From assembly GCF_009914755.1 (NCBI RefSeq), contig NC_060929.1: 64,000 bases of DNA; one strand, written 5' to 3'. The position numbers and the translations under genes were made by a program. How positions within the stretch are numbered: position 1 is the first letter of the stretch; each line of letters opens with the position of its first letter. This DNA is from the human T2T-CHM13v2.0 reference genome, Homo sapiens. The notes under the pieces are model-generated. The model ran no database searches, was not told the DNA's origin, and saw only the letters and a program-made list of their open reading frames with translations. Positions 140 to 64,000 of this stretch are shown here, one piece after another.

Positions 140-4850
<4,711 letters not shown>

Positions 4851-5224
4851 TCATAGTCCTTCTGAGCTCTCTGATACTCCCAGCTTTGGGAGGTGGGTCA
4901 GCACCTTAAGTCAATTTCCTACTAGTCTTATTGGTTTCCATAGACCTAAGAGAGTCAATATACCTCAATCAATAAAGCATGTCAAAATGTTTTCTCCCCA
5001 AAAACATTAAACACAATTGTATTGGCACTATTCATTTTCAATCAACAACGTCTCTCCCACTTCTTTGTTGACAGACCCTTATTATCCATTTCTCAGTGAT
5101 CCTATCCCCACCTCATCAGCTCAGAAAAAAAGCTAAATGAATTTAAGACCAGTATGTGTTCTTATGGCTTAAGCCACTGTTCATCAGGTTTTCTGTTAAT
5201 TACAAGTTAACCCTGGTAAAAGAA

Positions 5225-5490
5225 ATAATGGATAGCACTTAAAGTTTGTATTATGTGCTGAAAGCTTTCCAAGTGCTTCACGTGGACTGATTCATTCAGT
5301 CTTCACAACAATCCTAAGAGAATGATGATGATGATGATGATGATTATCATCGTCATCATCCCTATTTTACATCTGAGGAAATGGAGGCACAAAGATGTTA
5401 ACTTGTCCAGTGTGTCAGAGATAATATTTACAGAGTTAGCGTTTACATCTAGGCATATGGTTCCATCATCTGTGCTCTTTATCACTATAT
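5225..5490 (+). mobile_element. MIR remnant containing an (ATG)n microsatellite at about 5322-5344
   Basis: MIR core-like CCTATTTTACATCTGAGGAAATGGAGGCACAAAGATGTTAACTTGTCC; trinucleotide run seen directly. Confidence 0.75.
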
Positions 5491-5884
5491 TAGACTACCT
5501 GAATATGATAGAATGATTTATAATAACATATAAAAATTATCAGATTGAGTTGCCTTATTTTTGACCACAAATTAAACATTAACACATGGATTAAGCAAAA
5601 CCATGTAGTTGTCCATTATACCCAGGCTAAATTTTGTTACCTGGTCTGTGTTTTAGAAGTCATATGGCCAAGGGCTCTGCTATAATCCATTAAAACCTTT
5701 TATTCTCTGTCTGCCCTAGATTAGAGCTTGCCAGGAGAGCAATTTAACAATTGGTAACTGTTTAAACATTACCCCTGAAGGAAGCCTTCCATTCCTGCTT
5801 ATCTCTTTGTGTAGCCTTGTTCTCGTAGCCTCCTACTCAGAAATCAACTGAGATCTATCTGTAGGAATAATGCTGTTCAAAAAA

Positions 5885-6020
5885 ATATTTCCTTCTTGTA
5901 TTCAGCACTGCTAGAGACTTAGAAGTGGGTGCATGGAGAGATATTTTTTTCTTGCCTATTGCCAGCACTGCTAGACACTTAGAAGTGGAAGGTGTGAAGA
6001 GACATTTCTTTCTTGTGTCC
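5885..6020. repeat. Imperfect tandem duplication, period about 60 bp
   Basis: CAGCACTGCTAGA(G/C)ACTTAGAAGTGG at 5903 and again at 5963, with similar flanks. Confidence 0.8.
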
Positions 6021-48710: not shown

Positions 48711-49812
48711 TCTCTTTTTTTAAGTAATAGAAAGTTAAAATAATGCTTTGTGAGTGTTTACTGTGGGCCACACAGAGTTCTAAAAAATTCTACATAATTA
48801 ACTCATTCAATCCTTACAACAACAGAATGAGGTGAGACTATATTTAAGTCCCCCTTTTATAGATGAGTGAACCAACATGCAAAGAAGCTTACTAACTAAC
48901 CAAAAGTCACTCAGAGAATGTGGTAAAGCCCGAATCCCAACCTGAACAGTGAGCTCAAAAACCTCACTCCTAATCTTGTCTCCTCAGCCTCTGTGGAGGT
49001 TTGGGACAACTAAGGATGGAGGGATCCCTCAGGTGAGGGAAGGTGGGGTGGGAAGTGGAATTTCCAGTGGGGAGGGGGTGGGGGAGCATCTGAGGTGGAT
49101 GAAGAGTGAGCAGTAGTCCTCCTCTTTCCTGTTCCTGAAGCAATACAGAACCTTACAATAGCTTGCGTTGGAGTGTCTATGGGGGCTGAATGCTAGATTT
49201 CGGGTCACTGGGCCCTTCCCAGAAAGAACAGTACCGTCTGAAGCGTGCCCCTCACTGCTAAGTGCTGTAGATCCGTTGTGTCTTCAAGCCAGAGATGGAG
49301 ATGTCTGTGTTCAGTTGGTCACCTCATCCCGCACCTCCCTCTTCCTTCCCCTCACAGCCCTATCTCAAATCACTTCCCAGCAATGACTTGCCCTTCTCCC
49401 TCCAGGGCTGTCCCTGCATTCCCCACACCCTCCCGGCTGGCACCTCTGCCCAGGCTGTGGTTTGGCCCCGGAGGTCTGGACTGGACAGGGACAGCCTGAG
49501 CTGAACCTCAAGGAACAGGAAAGTTCAGTGTTTGCCTGAGGCACAACGAGTCATTCAGCAGTCACTAACTCTCGCTCCTTAGCACTCCATCCCCCTGCAG
49601 AAACCTTCCCAGGGGACATGGGGACATTTAGCCCTATTGAAGAGACTAGCCTCCATTGGCCTACTTTCTTCCCTCACACTTCCTTCAAGGGGCTTTAGCA
49701 AGATTTATTTCTGACAGAAATGTCTTTCTGTAGACTTGTAAATATTCAGTCACTTCACAAGTTTGCTTAAAACTGTACCAAACTGTATTTTATTCCATTT
49801 TCAAAAATGATC

Positions 49813-60901: not shown

Positions 60902-62506
60902 CCCTAAGGAACCCGTACTCTTTCCAGCTTTGCCATCTTTGTTACATTGCCCCCAGTAATGTAGTACATTATTACTGTAAACTAGGCCCTCAACTCCAAA
61001 GTAGAAGCCTTCTTGGAAACCCTGCAGACTCCCACTTACATTTGACTGGCCAGAGATTGGCACTGCCAGGCCTAGACACAAGTGGCCTGGGCGCCTCCAG
61101 CTCTCCCTACCCAGAAGTATTAATGTATAAATAAGACCATGAACACAAGAACTACAAGAGGCAGAGTGTGTATGATCTTTTTATGGGGATGACCAAATAT
61201 GAAACCTAGAACCAATAAAGTCAGAGATGGACTTATCCATATAATACCCCCATGTAGAAAAGAAACTTAAATATATTTGTCACATTTTGTTATATTAAGA
61301 GTTTCTATAAGACAAAAAATGCTTGATAAGCTCAAAGAATTCAACTGGCTAATTTGATATGTTCAAATTTTCATTTTTAAAGATGCAACTTAACAATGAA
61401 ATGTATCCCTTATCAAAAGGACTTGCCCTGTGTGAGGAAAATGGTCTCACAGTTGAGGGAAATGTAAACTGGCATAGTTTTTGGGGAGACCAAATTGCAT
61501 CTGACATTTTCTTAGCAATTCTACCTAAATATAAGAATCTATATTCAAAGATGATCACAGCACTGTAATAATGGGTAACTTTAAAATGCCCTCTTTGAAT
61601 GTCCATCAATAAGGGAATCAGTTAAATGGGTATTGAACTGTTTAAATACTATATACAAGCTAATTTCCATGGGGGAAAAAAAAGTGTTAGGATTTTGAAA
61701 TGTCTCCACAACACCTTGTTAAGGAGCTATAGGGTCGTTTTAAGGCTATGTTCATATACAAAGAAAGCAGTCTGGCAGAGCACATGTCAAACCTGACAGT
61801 CACTACCTTTGTTTAGGATTGGGGCTGGAAAGTCAGCTTCTCATATTGCATACATTGCTATTAAAGTTAAAAGCACAAACCACTTTCATAAGTTTGTCAG
61901 AACTTCCATTGCAGAGATATAGAGAAAGGAATAAAAAAAGACAGTAGTTCATCCTTATTTCTTGAAATCCACCACACAGCCAGGACGGAGCTTGGGAAAG
62001 TCTAGAGCCAGGGATGGCTCTCTCCCTCCTCTATGCTCAGCCCTCACCCTGACCATCATTCTACAGGGATACTCTGCAAGGTGCAGGCTAATGTGAACTA
62101 TGAATGTCCACTGAGAAAGTCACATTTTAAAATTGTAAATTTAACTGATATACTCCTCCTCCCAATAGGACAGATAACATGTTACTAAGGTTCTGAGTGT
62201 CATCTAACTTTGTTTCTCTTCTGCCTCAAGAAATCTAACAAGTAGTTTTGGTATTAATATCTGCGTTGGAGTACTTCCTTATATCTTACTTTGGACGTAA
62301 GTTTTAGAACCTAAAACTAGGAGTCATTGAGTGAGTGCTATAATGACCGAATATTTGTTTCAAAGTGCATTGCGTTGCTTCTTTCCTGTGATCCTTGACG
62401 ATAGGATTTGAAACCCAACATCTATCTACTCATTCTGATTCAGAGGCTCAAGGGCATTAAGTAATAGATATCCAACATAAGAGACCCACAACAATGGTCC
62501 TATAGT

Positions 62507-62512
62507 TTTATT
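62507..62512 (-). terminator. Probable polyadenylation signal of the minus-strand TGF-beta-like gene
   Basis: First AATAAA I found downstream of the stop at 63229, followed by a GT-rich element (TTGTTGTGGGTCTCTTATGTTGG). Implies a 3' UTR of about 740 nt. Confidence 0.65.
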
Positions 62513-63228
62513 AAAGATAGTGAAAAAGCTAATATCAAGTTCCTTAAATGATAGTGAGACAAACTTTCCATGAGGCCAGAGGCCCCCTCTGTCAGTCAAG
62601 CAACATCCTCTACTCTCAGGCTCCCATCTGACACCAGGTTGTGAAGGCCTTGGGGCCCTTTACCCATGACTAGCCCATGACAGAATGCTTTCTTCCACAG
62701 AGTCTTCACTCCCTCTAAAGAGGCCAGGAGTGTTAGGTGAGGAGGAATGTACATGCTGAGGTCAGTTCTGGACCAGCCCCAGGCCAATGGTACAGAGAAG
62801 GATGATAGCAGCTGAATGGCTCAGAAAGAGTCCAAAGCCAGCTTAACACTGGTAACAATTTTACCCCTACCCCAAGAGCTGACATGCGTCCAATTCCAGT
62901 TCCTCTTTCCCCACCTAAATGATCCCAGAGGTGGCACTAAGCCCAGCCCACTCACAATCTAGGACAGCGATAGTCAGACATCTCAATGGGCCCAGCTTCC
63001 CAGTAGTAGGAGTGACTGAGAACAGCACTAGGGGGCCCCTGCCACATCAAAGAGAAGCATCTATGAGGGGTTACTGCCATAATGCCAACCTTCTTGCTGT
63101 GCTTTGAGAAACAAACCAAATCCCACCTCCCTTCAAAGAGCTCTACTTGCTATGAAAAGTAATCCCACCCCCTACTAAAGTCCTGAGACTTAGGTGGCCC
63201 TGAGGCCAGTAGGAGGCTTTGGGGTATC

Positions 63229-63375
63229 TCAAGAGCAGCCACACTTCTCCACCAAGGAAGTGTTCACATAGTGCACACTCATCTTGTGTTCGTCATCCTG
63301 GACCATCAGGGAGAAGAGTCTGACCATGGTGGGACGGCAGGTCTGGAAGAGCCAGGGACAGGTAGGTACTGCCCT
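63229..63375 (-). CDS. Last coding exon of a divergent TGF-beta-superfamily cystine-knot protein (RAVPTCPWLFQTCRPTMVRLFSLMVQDDEHKMSVHYVNTSLVEKCGCS*)
   Basis: Acceptor TTTGTTTCTGCAG|AGG at 63376/63375; 147 nt, phase 0. C-x-PT...(31 aa)...CGC-x-stop has the same spacing as BMP2 CVPT...CGCR. Confidence 0.88.
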   Translation of the reverse strand, partial: RAVPTCPWLFQTCRPTMVRLFSLMVQDDEHKMSVHYVNTSLVEKCGCS

Positions 63376-63727
63376 CTGCAGAAACAAATGGCAGAATGGT
63401 GAGTGCCTCATAGCCACAGCCTCATATCTAAGGGCATCAGTAGACTTGTCAGGGATACATGGGAAGGGAGAAGGAGGGCCTGGGGAGAAGCTGCTGGATC
63501 AGGGCTGTTTCAGAACAATCTTTAGGAAGCTGATGTTTCTTATGAATAAAGATAAGGGATAAGGTCACAGGGCGGGGAAGATGCTACACACTGCATCAGT
63601 GCTAGATTACATAATTACCAACTTCAATGGCTTCCTTGACTCAAAAGGAGCCAGGCCTAGAGAGTTGAGCACTTAGTGCTATCCCAATATGACCCCAGAA
63701 GAGAAAGAACGAGGCTCCATGTCTTAC

Positions 63728-64000
63728 CTTATAGCACTCAAAGCTGGAATGACGGAGCTCACTGTTGAGGGCCGGGCAGGTCCCCTGACAGTAAGAGAAG
63801 CTGAGAGTCTTGGGTGCAACAATACACTCGCCCCAGGCAGCTCTGTGAAGGTTCACCTTGCGATCCTGCAGATGGCAGAGCTTCTCTGCTGGAAAGATAT
63901 CCTGGCCATGGCCTATCTCCCGGCGATTCTGGCCCGGGATCCCCAGGATCAGCTGCTCCACATTAGAGATTAAGGGTTTCTGGACATAAGGCAGGTGAAA
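63728..64000 (-). CDS. Penultimate coding exon of the same gene (5'-partial), N-terminal half of the cystine-knot domain
   Basis: Frame open to the window edge: FHLPYVQKPLISNVEQLILGIPGQNRREIGHGQDIFPAEKLCHLQDRKVNLHRAAWGECIVAPKTLSFSYCQGTCPALNSELRHSSFECYK. Donor AAG|GTAAGA at 63728/63727, phase 0, 352-nt intron. C-x28-CxGxC with W-x-x-x-IVAP. The exon may start at a candidate acceptor TGTCCAG| (63979) or beyond the window. Confidence 0.85.

What the first reader, a model, noticed from the sequence alone, without database searches (positions are those of the whole stretch)
63229..64000. Spliced, intact, highly divergent TGF-beta-superfamily ligand domain that matches none of the classical human ligands I know
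Seen: joining two minus-strand exons through canonical GT-AG, phase-0 sites gives 139 uninterrupted codons ending CGCS*. The pattern is C-x28-CQGTC-x28-C-x31-CGC, and WGECIVAP and CRPT...SLMVQDDEHKM...VEKCGC align to BMP2 WNDWIVAP and CVPT...SMLYLDENEKV...VEGCGC. Established: C-x28-CxGxC and C-x31-CxC are the BMP2/4 cystine-knot spacings. Inference: the sequence is not TGFB1-3, a BMP, GDF, inhibin/activin, NODAL, LEFTY, AMH or a GDNF-family ligand as I recall them. It may be an overlooked, fast-evolving family member or a TGF-beta-like domain at the end of a poorly characterised protein. It may already be annotated under a name I cannot recall.
Basis: partly seen in the sequence, partly recalled or inferred. 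Interest (0 to 1): 0.9.

Follow-up and report, generated by a model that had tools for sequence, protein, structure and literature searches.

The report
Dead human copy, hidden Nodal-like gene
This stretch is the still-intact ligand end of a broken human gene whose open relatives in rabbit, voles, moles, aardvark and platypus form a fast-evolving, undescribed branch of the Nodal growth-factor family, possibly the second Nodal gene that mammals were thought to have lost.

Summary
Two minus-strand exons (63728-63979 and 63229-63375), joined GT-AG in phase 0, encode a complete TGF-beta cystine-knot domain (Pfam PF00019, 53 bits when spliced).

It is not a free-standing human ligand. It is the 3' part of a three-exon gene that runs past the window edge. 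In human that gene has a 1-bp insertion in exon 1 and a TAG at the third codon of exon 2. The RefSeq lncRNA starts inside the former signal-peptide region and splices into the middle of exon 2.

- **Orthologues:** open reading frames exist in rabbit, cricetid rodents, gerbil, marmot, tree shrew, moles, aardvark, Old World monkeys, platypus and echidna.
- **Retrocopy:** a processed copy on human chr10 lacks both introns exactly at the predicted junctions.
- **Family placement:** intron position, prodomain homology, motifs and an ML tree place the family with Nodal, on the Nodal2 side (95/95). AU tests reject only a GDF1/3 affinity, which is RefSeq's label.
- **Synteny:** the locus (5q11.2) does not match the published Nodal2 neighbourhood.
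- **Literature:** three papers state that mammals lost Nodal2, and I found no description of this gene.

Verdict: a human unitary pseudogene of an unrecognised mammalian Nodal-type gene.

The parts
63229..63375 (-). Exon 3 coding part: 48 codons (RAVPTC...EKCGCS) plus the TGA stop at 63229-63231. It encodes finger 2 of the ligand domain.
   Evidence: Pfam TGF_beta profile 68-104. Aligns to the last exon of the rabbit, vole and mangabey proteins.
63376..63727 (-). Intron 2, GT..AG, phase 0. It sits 16 residues after the CQGTC motif, at the same place and phase as the NODAL exon 2/3 intron.
   Evidence: It is removed exactly in the chr10 retrocopy.
63728..64000 (-). In-window part of ancestral exon 2. 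The whole exon runs to window-scale position 64392, outside the window (L009 1728-2392). It encodes the prodomain arm, the linker and finger 1 of the ligand domain. The frame is open for 219 codons after a premature TAG at window-scale 64385-64387 (L009 2385-2387), where rabbit, vole, mole and mangabey have Gln.
   Evidence: 73% identical to rabbit and 90% to mangabey over all 219 residues. The acceptor ..CCCTACAG| lies before L009 2392. The exon 1/exon 2 junction is confirmed by the retrocopy. The TAG is seen.
63979..63979 (-). Internal acceptor used by the annotated lncRNA NR_172721.1 (..TATGTCCAG|AAACCC). It skips the first 413 bases of the ancestral exon 2.
   Evidence: Hub annotation and the sequence.
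64000..64000 (-). Marker for the parts that lie beyond the window edge. Intron 1 is at window-scale 64393-64995 (L009 2393-2995), with donor AAAA|GTAAGT and acceptor CTACAG|. The exon 1 coding part is at window-scale 64996-65180 (L009 2996-3180). It has the ATG at 65178-65180 and a signal-peptide-like core (WLIPGLLALGLWCMCL). A run of seven T at 65032-65038 shifts the frame after codon 49.
   Evidence: tblastn switches from frame -2 to frame -3 at the run for 3 of 3 orthologue queries. The retrocopy has six bases there and lacks intron 1 exactly. The annotated TSS (65098, hub) lies downstream of this ATG.
62493..63228 (-). The first ~735 bases of the 3' UTR, which are also carried by the chr10 retrocopy.
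   Evidence: 732 aligned bases, 136 mismatches.

Best explanation
The finding is the 3' two-thirds of a three-exon gene of the TGF-beta superfamily. Exon 1 encodes the signal peptide and the start of the prodomain. Exon 2 encodes the rest of the prodomain and finger 1. Exon 3 encodes finger 2. The gene belongs to a divergent Nodal-type lineage found in monotremes and several eutherian orders. My best reading, at about even odds, is that it descends from Nodal2 (Nodal-related). In species with an open frame it should give a secreted, N-glycosylated pro-protein. That protein has no furin site at the usual place, a displaced fourth cysteine, two extra cysteines, and a shortened and probably unstructured wrist. 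It is therefore unlikely to signal like canonical Nodal. More likely it acts as an uncleaved or alternatively processed ligand, or as a modulator (inference). In human the gene is a transcribed unitary pseudogene. A +1 T in exon 1 and a TAG at the start of exon 2 cut off the signal peptide. The RefSeq lncRNA starts inside the former signal-peptide region and uses an internal acceptor. The intact-looking ligand domain is therefore not expected to be made as a secreted protein.
For: **Domain.** Pfam TGF_beta matches. The AlphaFold model of the rabbit orthologue has confident fingers (pLDDT 74-87). Foldseek finds activin A and the Nodal/BMP2 chimera at TM about 0.6, with 63 matches at E<=0.001.

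**Gene and lesions.** The frame stays open 247 aa upstream of the donor. The frame switch in exon 1 and the TAG appear against 3 of 3 orthologue queries. All four splice sites are present.

**Orthologues.**
- 23 proteins reach E<=1e-3 among 191 candidates, named from 14 mammals.
- Platypus and echidna were added.
- The human genome holds only two such loci: chr5 and a chr10 retrocopy.

**mRNA structure.** The chr10 retrocopy lacks both introns exactly at the predicted junctions, includes the signal-peptide region, and has six rather than seven bases at the T run.

**Nodal affinity.**
- The phase-0 intron position matches NODAL.
- Prodomain profile-profile comparison gives probability 97.1%, E 5.6e-11 over 94 columns.
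- Monotreme proteins keep FNAYRC.
- The ML tree separates (Nodal2 + this clade) from (Nodal1-like + BMP/GDF) at UFBoot 95 / SH-aLRT 95.
- Of 21 informative columns, 18 favour Nodal2.
- A Cys-Pro..Cys motif is related to the C-x-x-C seen in 116 of 120 Nodal2-type proteins.
- GDF1/3 affinity is rejected (p-AU 0.003).

**Protein features.** None of 10 eutherian proteins has RxxR within 70 residues before the first knot cysteine. All 10 have an N-x-S sequon near the C-terminus.

**Relaxed constraint in human.** Human differs at 5 of 56 sites that are invariant in 8 non-primates; mangabey differs at 1.
Against: - **AU tests.** They do not reject this clade joined to Nodal1-like sequences (p 0.30), or Nodal1+Nodal2 as one group that excludes it (p 0.37). 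A join to mammalian NODAL is only borderline (p 0.056).
- **Synteny.** The locus is at 5q11.2 beside MAP3K1. Published Nodal2 neighbours are EIF4EBP1, ASH2L and STAR (passages).
- **Shared TAG.** The chr10 retrocopy carries the same TAG codon, yet the mangabey protein has Gln there. Either this is a parallel C>T change or the stop is older than I assume.
- **Partial models.** Only rabbit, vole and echidna models include a signal peptide. Six eutherian models start at an internal Met, so full-length intactness is shown for few species.
- **Decay elsewhere.** Several unnamed relatives (P0028, P0031, P0044) and the titi monkey model look frame-shifted or disrupted.
- **Residual constraint.** Change on the human lineage is about half that of the retrocopy (16 against 31 polarised changes; pairwise omega 0.57). 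Constraint was therefore not fully lost for long, and a residual role cannot be excluded.
- **Model quality.** The whole AlphaFold model has low confidence (mean pLDDT 57.4).
- **Missing data.** No orthologue nucleotide sequences, expression data or population data were available.
Confidence: 0.8

Rival explanations
1. The lineage is not Nodal2. It is either a stem-mammal DNA duplicate of NODAL (Nodal1) or a third ancient Nodal-type lineage that survives only in mammals.
For: The AU tests leave both open. The clade joined to Nodal1-like sequences has delta lnL 5.1, p 0.30. Nodal1+Nodal2 as one group excluding it has delta lnL 3.4, p 0.37. The locus is not in the Nodal2 neighbourhood given in the literature. 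The stem of the clade is very long (about 1.8-2.0 changes per column), so the ML position could be long-branch attraction.
Against: The ML tree puts it on the Nodal2 side at 95/95. 18 of 21 informative columns favour Nodal2, and many of those states are absent from the outgroups. The Cys-Pro...Cys motif aligns with the Nodal2 C-P-x-C. BLAST bit scores for platypus, echidna and P0033 run Nodal2 > Nodal1 > GDF1/3. A join to mammalian NODAL costs 18.9 lnL (p 0.056).
Confidence: 0.35
2. The human locus still makes a functional protein, for example the 188-residue product from the internal Met (MEVVP...) of a full-length exon 2 transcript.
For: 267 codons downstream of the TAG are open and all splice sites are intact. 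The protein database holds a spliced 188-aa form identical to human (P0007). Change on the human lineage is about half the retrocopy's.
Against: Such a product has no signal peptide and only half a prodomain, so it could not fold as a disulphide-knot ligand in the secretory pathway (inference). The annotated transcript skips that Met, and no AUG in the domain's frame precedes the domain in annotated exon 2 (and hub annotation). Human has changes at four otherwise invariant sites that mangabey lacks (R178Q, F206L, P265S, L272P), plus F262L shared with mangabey. The lesions may be too young for further decay to be expected.
Confidence: 0.05
3. It is a GDF3 or GDF1 relative, as the RefSeq description and several automatic names ('growth/differentiation factor 3') suggest.
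For: GDF3 is the best non-orthologous hit for eutherian queries. Mammalian GDF3 clusters P0037-P0039 score E 4.5e-9 to 1.1e-8, and human GDF3 scores E 1.3e-7. Like GDF3, it lacks the canonical fourth cysteine.
Against: The AU test rejects a clade with GDF3/DVR1 (delta lnL 30.4, p 0.003). GDF3's ligand domain lies in one exon (full-profile single match), whereas this one is split as in NODAL. The less derived members (platypus, echidna, P0033) score higher against Nodal than against GDF1/3.
Confidence: 0.02

Closest known systems
Nodal2 / Nodal-related (chicken Nodal-related 1, Xenopus Xnr1/2/5/6, zebrafish squint and southpaw)
   Same: It has three coding exons with a phase-0 intron in the wrist region and a homologous prodomain arm. 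The displaced cysteine lies in a Cys-Pro context. The 'DM.VDF' and 'FNAYRC' motifs are kept in monotremes. The ML tree groups the two at 95/95.
   Different: The human locus is at 5q11.2, not beside EIF4EBP1/ASH2L/STAR. Monotreme and eutherian proteins have no furin site. There are four extra residues between the two cysteines. The wrist is 3 residues shorter overall and has low model confidence. In eutherians the second Trp of W..W is replaced by Cys, two extra cysteines appear, and a C-terminal sequon is present. Pfam scores fall from 109 bits (turtle) to 46-53 bits (eutherians), and no TGFb_propeptide match is found.
NODAL (Nodal1), human chr10
   Same: The exon plan, intron position and intron phase are the same. 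A sister relation is not formally excluded (p 0.30 and 0.056).
   Different: NODAL has adjacent CC and RHRR sites. The rabbit orthologue does not find NODAL at E<=0.001 in the human genome. 18 of 21 informative columns favour Nodal2 over Nodal1-like sequences.
GDF3 / GDF1 (Vg1 group)
   Same: GDF3 is the best classical hit for the eutherian proteins, and the canonical fourth cysteine is missing in both.
   Different: GDF3 has a single-exon ligand domain. A clade with GDF3 is rejected by the AU test.
Divergent non-canonical relatives such as Xenopus Xnr3 and LEFTY (recalled, not tested here)
   Same: These are precedents for Nodal-pathway ligands that lost canonical cysteines or processing and act as modulators rather than standard agonists.
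   Different: No sequence or functional comparison was made here. This is a lead only.

Membership tests
TGF-beta superfamily ligand (Pfam PF00019) | Profile match above the curated cut-off | tested here: met
   Exon 2 alone scores 36.2 bits against a cut-off of 27. The spliced human form P0007 scores 53.3 bits over profile 2-104. Rabbit scores 48.9 and platypus 68.5.
TGF-beta superfamily ligand (Pfam PF00019) | Six knot cysteines with canonical spacing (C-x28-CxGxC ... C-x31-CxC) | tested here: met
   Counted in the translations. The spacing matches human BMP2 as read.
TGF-beta superfamily ligand (Pfam PF00019) | Two-finger cystine-knot fold | tested here: met
   Rabbit orthologue model: fingers have pLDDT 74-87. 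Foldseek finds activin A and the Nodal/BMP2 chimera at TMt about 0.6, with 63 hits at E<=0.001. The wrist (residues 270-290) has pLDDT below 50.
TGF-beta superfamily ligand (Pfam PF00019) | Signal peptide and prodomain in frame with the ligand domain | tested here: not met
   In human there is a +1 T in exon 1 and a TAG at codon 3 of exon 2. The feature is met in the rabbit, vole and echidna models.
TGF-beta superfamily ligand (Pfam PF00019) | RxxR convertase site between the prodomain and the ligand | tested here: not met
   0 of 10 eutherian proteins have one. Monotremes have only RADR 45 residues upstream. P0033 has RVKR.
Nodal subfamily | Three coding exons with a phase-0 intron between the third and fourth/fifth cysteines | tested here: met
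   ECYK|RAVP here against HAYIQ|SLLK in NODAL. Both are GT-AG and phase 0. From the split profile ranges, BMP5-8 and TGFB genes also seem to have an intron near this point, so the feature is not exclusive. Their exact positions were not checked.
Nodal subfamily | Prodomain homologous to Nodal prodomains | tested here: met
   hhalign of prodomain-only alignments (10 against 28 sequences) gives probability 97.1%, E 5.6e-11 over 94 columns. Pfam TGFb_propeptide itself is not matched.
Nodal subfamily | Placement inside the Nodal clade in a tree | tested here: inconclusive
   The ML tree places it inside at 95/95. A tree with Nodal1+Nodal2 excluding it is not rejected (p 0.37).
Nodal2 (Nodal-related) orthogroup | Grouping with Nodal2 rather than Nodal1 | tested here: inconclusive
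   The branch has 95/95 support and 18 columns favour Nodal2 against 3 for Nodal1. However, the clade joined to Nodal1-like sequences is not rejected (p 0.30).
Nodal2 (Nodal-related) orthogroup | Conserved neighbourhood EIF4EBP1 - Nodal2 - ASH2L/STAR | tested here: not met
   The human locus is chr5:57.59-57.60 Mb beside MAP3K1 (hub annotation). The neighbours are taken from passages of bioRxiv 10.1101/483974. The location in monotremes could not be tested.
GDF1/GDF3 (RefSeq description) | Monophyly with GDF3/DVR1 and a single-exon ligand domain | tested here: not met
   The AU test gives p 0.003. The ligand domain is split by an intron.

The most novel reading that the evidence does not exclude
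Mammals did not lose Nodal2. In the mammalian stem it left the EIF4EBP1-ASH2L neighbourhood for a site beside MAP3K1, lost its furin site and wrist helix, and evolved so fast that Nodal2 queries no longer find it. It persists as an open gene in monotremes and in scattered eutherian orders (rabbit, cricetid rodents, moles, tree shrew, aardvark, Old World monkeys). It decayed independently in others, including recently in the human lineage, where it survives as the lncRNA LOC105378979 plus an old retrocopy on chr10.
Probability: 0.45. Interest if true: 0.8.

Novelty: new member of a known kind. Interest (0 to 1): 0.66.

Why it matters
**Effect on the Nodal2-loss account.** The loss of Nodal-related/Nodal2 in mammals is a standard example of hidden paralogy and of gene loss in early-development regulators. 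It is stated in PMC3296468, bioRxiv 10.1101/483974 and PMC12344233. The last says that no mammalian Nodal2 orthologue has been identified even after hundreds of genomes. A second Nodal-type gene with an open frame in monotremes and several eutherian orders would revise that account. It would also add an untested ligand to the mammalian TGF-beta family. Finally, it would give a concrete case of an 'elusive' gene that escaped notice because it is broken or unannotated in human, and because no annotated protein from mouse, rat, carnivores, ungulates or bats appeared among the hits here.

**Effect on human annotation.** The reading explains a lncRNA at the 5q11.2 breast-cancer risk region as a pseudogene transcript. 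It also shows that the 'growth/differentiation factor 3' description is misleading.

Tried and rejected
- **GDF3-relative reading.** Rejected by the AU test and by gene structure.
- **Simple Nodal2 orthology by synteny.** The human locus is not in the published Nodal2 neighbourhood. No Nodal-like remnant was found on chr8p with either PF00019 or turtle Nodal2 (38 matches, none at chr8p11 and none at the chr5 locus).
- **Strict diagnostic-site screen.** A screen for sites separating Nodal1 from Nodal2 gave only one usable column. A looser one gave four, of which one agreed with Nodal2 and three with neither. The frequency-difference screen was chosen after these. It is biased by the unequal and heterogeneous Nodal1-like set (8 rows, unnamed).
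- **Alignment query.** The own genome does not accept an alignment as query.
- **Literature searches.**
  - LOC105378979: one GWAS paper only.
  - 'TGF-beta superfamily' + 'unitary pseudogene' + nodal: one unrelated review.
  - nodal-related + MAP3K1 + synteny: none.
  - NR_172721 and 'nodal homolog 2-A(-like)': none.
  - Nodal2 + mammals: 19 papers hold both terms and 14 were listed. Of the two I read, one states the loss and the other does not address mammals. The rest were seen as titles and abstract openings only.
  - nodal/platypus/paralog/TGF-beta/MAP3K1: nothing relevant beyond the papers cited.
- **Not attempted.** I did not predict a complex and make no binding claim.
- **Not seen.** Supplementary files and figures of the cited papers, including the synteny figure of PMC12344233 and Table S1 of the preprint, were not seen. 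They could list a mammalian sequence that I am unaware of.
Full report
**1. Observation**

On the minus strand the frame is open from the window edge (64000) to the donor AAG|GTAAGA at 63728/63727. It resumes after TTCTGCAG| at 63375 and ends ...EKCGCS-TGA at 63229. That gives 139 codons with the pattern C-x28-CQGTC-x28-C-x31-CGC. The x28 and x31 spacings match human BMP2 as read from the genome.

- Pfam TGF_beta matches exon 2 at 36.2 bits (cut-off 27) and exon 3 at 22.8 bits.
- The spliced human form present in the protein database (P0007) scores 53.3 bits over the whole profile.
- Sequence matches to solved structures are weak; the best is inhibin beta-B at E 1.4e-3.

The domain is therefore real, complete and very divergent.

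**2. The gene extends beyond the window and is broken in human**

A PF00019 scan of the window's own genome showed the exon 2 frame open for 247 residues. I fetched the flank as L009, where L009 coordinate = window coordinate - 62000. The open frame runs upstream to L009 2384, well past the annotated acceptor at 63979.

tblastn with the rabbit, vole and mangabey proteins aligned the whole 219-residue stretch at 73%, 63% and 90% identity. It also aligned an upstream exon with an ATG and a hydrophobic signal-like core. In all three comparisons the match in exon 1 switches frame at a run of seven T (window-scale 65032-65038). The codon where orthologues have Gln (..KSSQ|FLHSYW) is TAG in human (window-scale 64385-64387).

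With one T left out, the three exons give 331 codons plus the stop, containing that single internal stop. All four splice sites look normal. According to the hub annotation, the RefSeq lncRNA starts at 65098. That is downstream of the first ATG (65178-65180). It splices into 63979, inside ancestral exon 2. In the domain's frame, annotated exon 2 has no AUG before the domain.

**3. Orthologues**

The word-index search with the 219 residues found 23 proteins at E<=1e-3 among 191 candidates. Named sources were Cercocebus, Oryctolagus, Alexandromys, Scotinomys, Galemys, Talpa, Neotoma, Marmota, Tupaia, Meriones, Peromyscus, Phodopus, Orycteropus and Plecturocebus. Their automatic names were 'nodal homolog 2-A', 'nodal-like', 'growth/differentiation factor 3' or 'uncharacterized'.

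- The rabbit (330 aa) and vole (320 aa) models have signal peptides.
- Six other models start at an internal Met, so their 5' ends are unknown.
- The titi monkey model ends in what looks to me like an Alu-derived tail (not tested with any tool), and several unnamed relatives look frame-shifted.

A profile search of 1.84 billion representatives gave only 118 hits at E<=1e-3, 16 of them at E<=1e-10. This shows how far the family lies from other TGF-beta ligands. Two of the hits, P0033 (unnamed) and P0034, match through the prodomain. P0034 is platypus 'nodal homolog 2-A-like', and an echidna protein of 365 aa with a signal peptide also exists. No protein from mouse, rat, apes, carnivores, ungulates or bats appeared among the hits. 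That is absence of evidence only.

**4. A retrocopy confirms the mRNA structure**

The weak PF00019 hit at chr10:97.708 Mb proved to be a processed copy of this gene.

- Exon 1, full exon 2 and exon 3, plus about 735 bases of 3' UTR, are contiguous. Both introns are missing exactly at the predicted junctions.
- Identity to the chr5 gene is 82-85%.
- The copy covers the signal-peptide region, so the ancestral transcript started upstream of today's annotated TSS.
- It has six bases where human chr5 has seven T, so the insertion is derived.
- It has decayed, with 1 TGA and 3 TAG in the matches.
- From shared junction residues, P0023 and P0024 look like its orthologues in other primates.
- Unexpectedly, it carries TAG at the same codon as chr5. 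I cannot explain this beyond parallel mutation or an older stop.

The human genome holds only these two loci (8 matches at E<=0.001, the others being GDF3, INHBA and INHBB).

**5. Family placement**

- **Intron.** NODAL has the same phase-0 intron (HAYIQ|SLLK) one residue from the position here (ECYK|RAVP).
- **Prodomain.** Prodomain-only profiles of this family (10 sequences) and of Nodal proteins (28 sequences) align with probability 97.1%, E 5.6e-11.
- **Motifs.** Monotreme proteins keep 'DMEVDF' and 'FNAYRC'.
- **Cysteine pattern.** Of 120 Nodal2-type proteins (205 at E<=1e-10, best 120 listed), 116 have C-x-x-C before the fifth cysteine, 1 has CC, 2 have other patterns and 1 was unmatched. 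Seven Nodal1-like sequences in that table have CC; an eighth CC sequence, P0239, falls among the teleost Nodal2 rows in the tree. This family has C-P-x5-C, which aligns as a four-residue insertion in C-P-x-C.
- **Tree.** A careful IQ-TREE run used 53 rows and 396 columns. Two very long outgroup rows of the 55-row quick tree were left out. This family was recovered at 100/100. The branch separating (Nodal2 + this family) from (Nodal1-like + BMP/GDF) had support 95/95.
- **AU tests.**

| Constraint | delta lnL | p-AU |
|---|---|---|
| With Nodal1-like sequences | 5.1 | 0.30 |
| With mammalian NODAL | 18.9 | 0.056 |
| Nodal1+Nodal2 excluding it | 3.4 | 0.37 |
| With GDF3/DVR1 | 30.4 | 0.003 |

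- **Informative columns.** States of P0033, platypus and echidna favour Nodal2 in 18 of 21 columns where the two sets differ by at least 0.5 in frequency. Stricter screens gave too few columns.
- **Bit scores.** For these three proteins BLAST bit scores run Nodal2 > Nodal1 > GDF1/3. For eutherians the scores are close to each other.
- **Pfam gradient.** Turtle Nodal2 scores 109.5 bits, P0033 95.9, monotremes 68-70 and eutherians 46-53.
- **Detectability.** A turtle Nodal2 query does not detect the human chr5 locus at E<=1. This may explain why similarity searches missed the gene.

**6. Literature**

- PMC3296468 (passages) lists Nodal-related among genes lost in mammals.
- bioRxiv 10.1101/483974 (passages) finds Nodal-related in all main vertebrate groups except mammals and cyclostomes. 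It gives its neighbours as EIF4EBP1, ASH2L and STAR.
- PMC12344233 (outline and passages) states that no mammalian Nodal2 orthologue has been identified. It also states that the gene seems to have been lost before the monotreme split.
- LOC105378979 occurs in one paper, as the gene nearest to a breast-cancer SNP.
- Other searches found no description of this gene.
- Figures and supplements were not seen.

**7. Protein features and likely action (inference)**

In 10 of 10 eutherian proteins there is no RxxR within 70 residues before the first knot cysteine. An N-x-S sequon sits just before the final CGC. The region that replaces the cleavage site (..PPLFHLPYVQEPFIPNVEQLIL..) is strongly conserved. 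A dibasic KR-D 45 residues upstream of the first cysteine is conserved in most eutherians but reads KQ-D in human.

The second Trp of W..W is Cys, two further cysteines flank the wrist, and the ligand is 98 rather than 101 residues from the first cysteine. The rabbit model has confident fingers, but pLDDT is below 50 for residues 270-290 and no wrist helix is predicted there. Its fold matches activin A and the Nodal/BMP2 chimera.

I infer a secreted, glycosylated pro-protein that is not cut at the usual site and has an altered receptor-binding wrist. None of this was tested.

**8. Constraint and timing**

- Human differs at 5 of 56 sites invariant in eight non-primates; mangabey differs at 1 (166 columns filled in all ten sequences).
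- Human and mangabey are identical at 167 of 188 positions.
- Between the chr5 gene and the retrocopy, dS is 0.233, dN 0.133 and omega 0.57 over 326 codons. Omega is 0.48 in the ligand part and 0.68 in the prodomain part. The 3' UTR distance is 0.213.
- Polarised with the other mammals, 31 amino-acid changes fall on the retrocopy and 16 on the chr5 lineage. A further 12 sites changed on both, 18 were unpolarisable and 4 had no outgroup. Eight of the 16 are human changes where mangabey keeps the ancestral residue.
- Together with recalled primate substitution rates, this suggests partial constraint after the retroposition and a fairly recent disabling in the human lineage. It remains an estimate.

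**9. Limits**

- No eukaryote genomes other than the window's own were available. Synteny, orthologue nucleotide sequences and the state of apes are therefore untested.
- The Nodal1-like rows and P0033 are unnamed.
- The family's stem branch is long, so long-branch attraction is possible.
- Gene models from automatic pipelines may hide lesions.

Noticed in passing
G000:C10:97707903-97708851 (L014 about 4223-5915, minus strand): A processed retrocopy of the chr5 gene. Exons 1-3 and about 735 bases of 3' UTR are contiguous, at 82-85% identity, with a 160-codon open stretch ending CGCS and several stops upstream. P0023 and P0024 look like its orthologues in other primates.
   Followed up: yes
L014 (retrocopy) against L009 2385-2387 (window-scale 64385-64387): The retrocopy has TAG at the same codon as the chr5 gene (TCC TAG against TCA TAG), although the mangabey protein has Gln there and the retrocopy predates the T insertion. 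Either this is a parallel C>T change or the stop is old. It remains unexplained.
   Followed up: partly
G000:C22:22599885-22600130 (L013 480-779, plus strand): A 99-codon open frame with a BMP-type ligand sequence (77 bits to PF00019). It is uninterrupted across the point where the BMP5-8 genes seem to have an intron, judging from the split profile ranges. By eye it looks like a processed BMP5/6/7-type pseudogene.
   Followed up: no
G000:C10:50261278-50261508 (L012 429-767, minus strand): A 112-codon frame with a decayed TGF-beta-like sequence (40 bits) that has lost most of the knot cysteines. It is probably an old pseudogene fragment.
   Followed up: no
window 48935-49436 and the surrounding region: The locus lies in the 5q11.2 breast-cancer risk region. 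LOC105378979 is listed as the gene nearest to rs112776581 in PMC7057957, and RefSeq marks enhancers in the window (hub annotation). No link to the pseudogene was tested.
   Followed up: no
L009 3098 (annotated TSS, window-scale 65098) against L009 3178-3180 (ancestral ATG): The present human transcript starts inside the former signal-peptide coding region. The mangabey model also begins at the second in-frame Met, which suggests a shifted start site in catarrhines.
   Followed up: partly
proteins P0028, P0031, P0044 (unnamed) and P0022 (titi monkey): Relatives whose translations switch into the wrong frame within the ligand domain, or (by eye, untested) end in Alu-derived sequence. This suggests independent decay of the gene in other mammals.
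   Followed up: no
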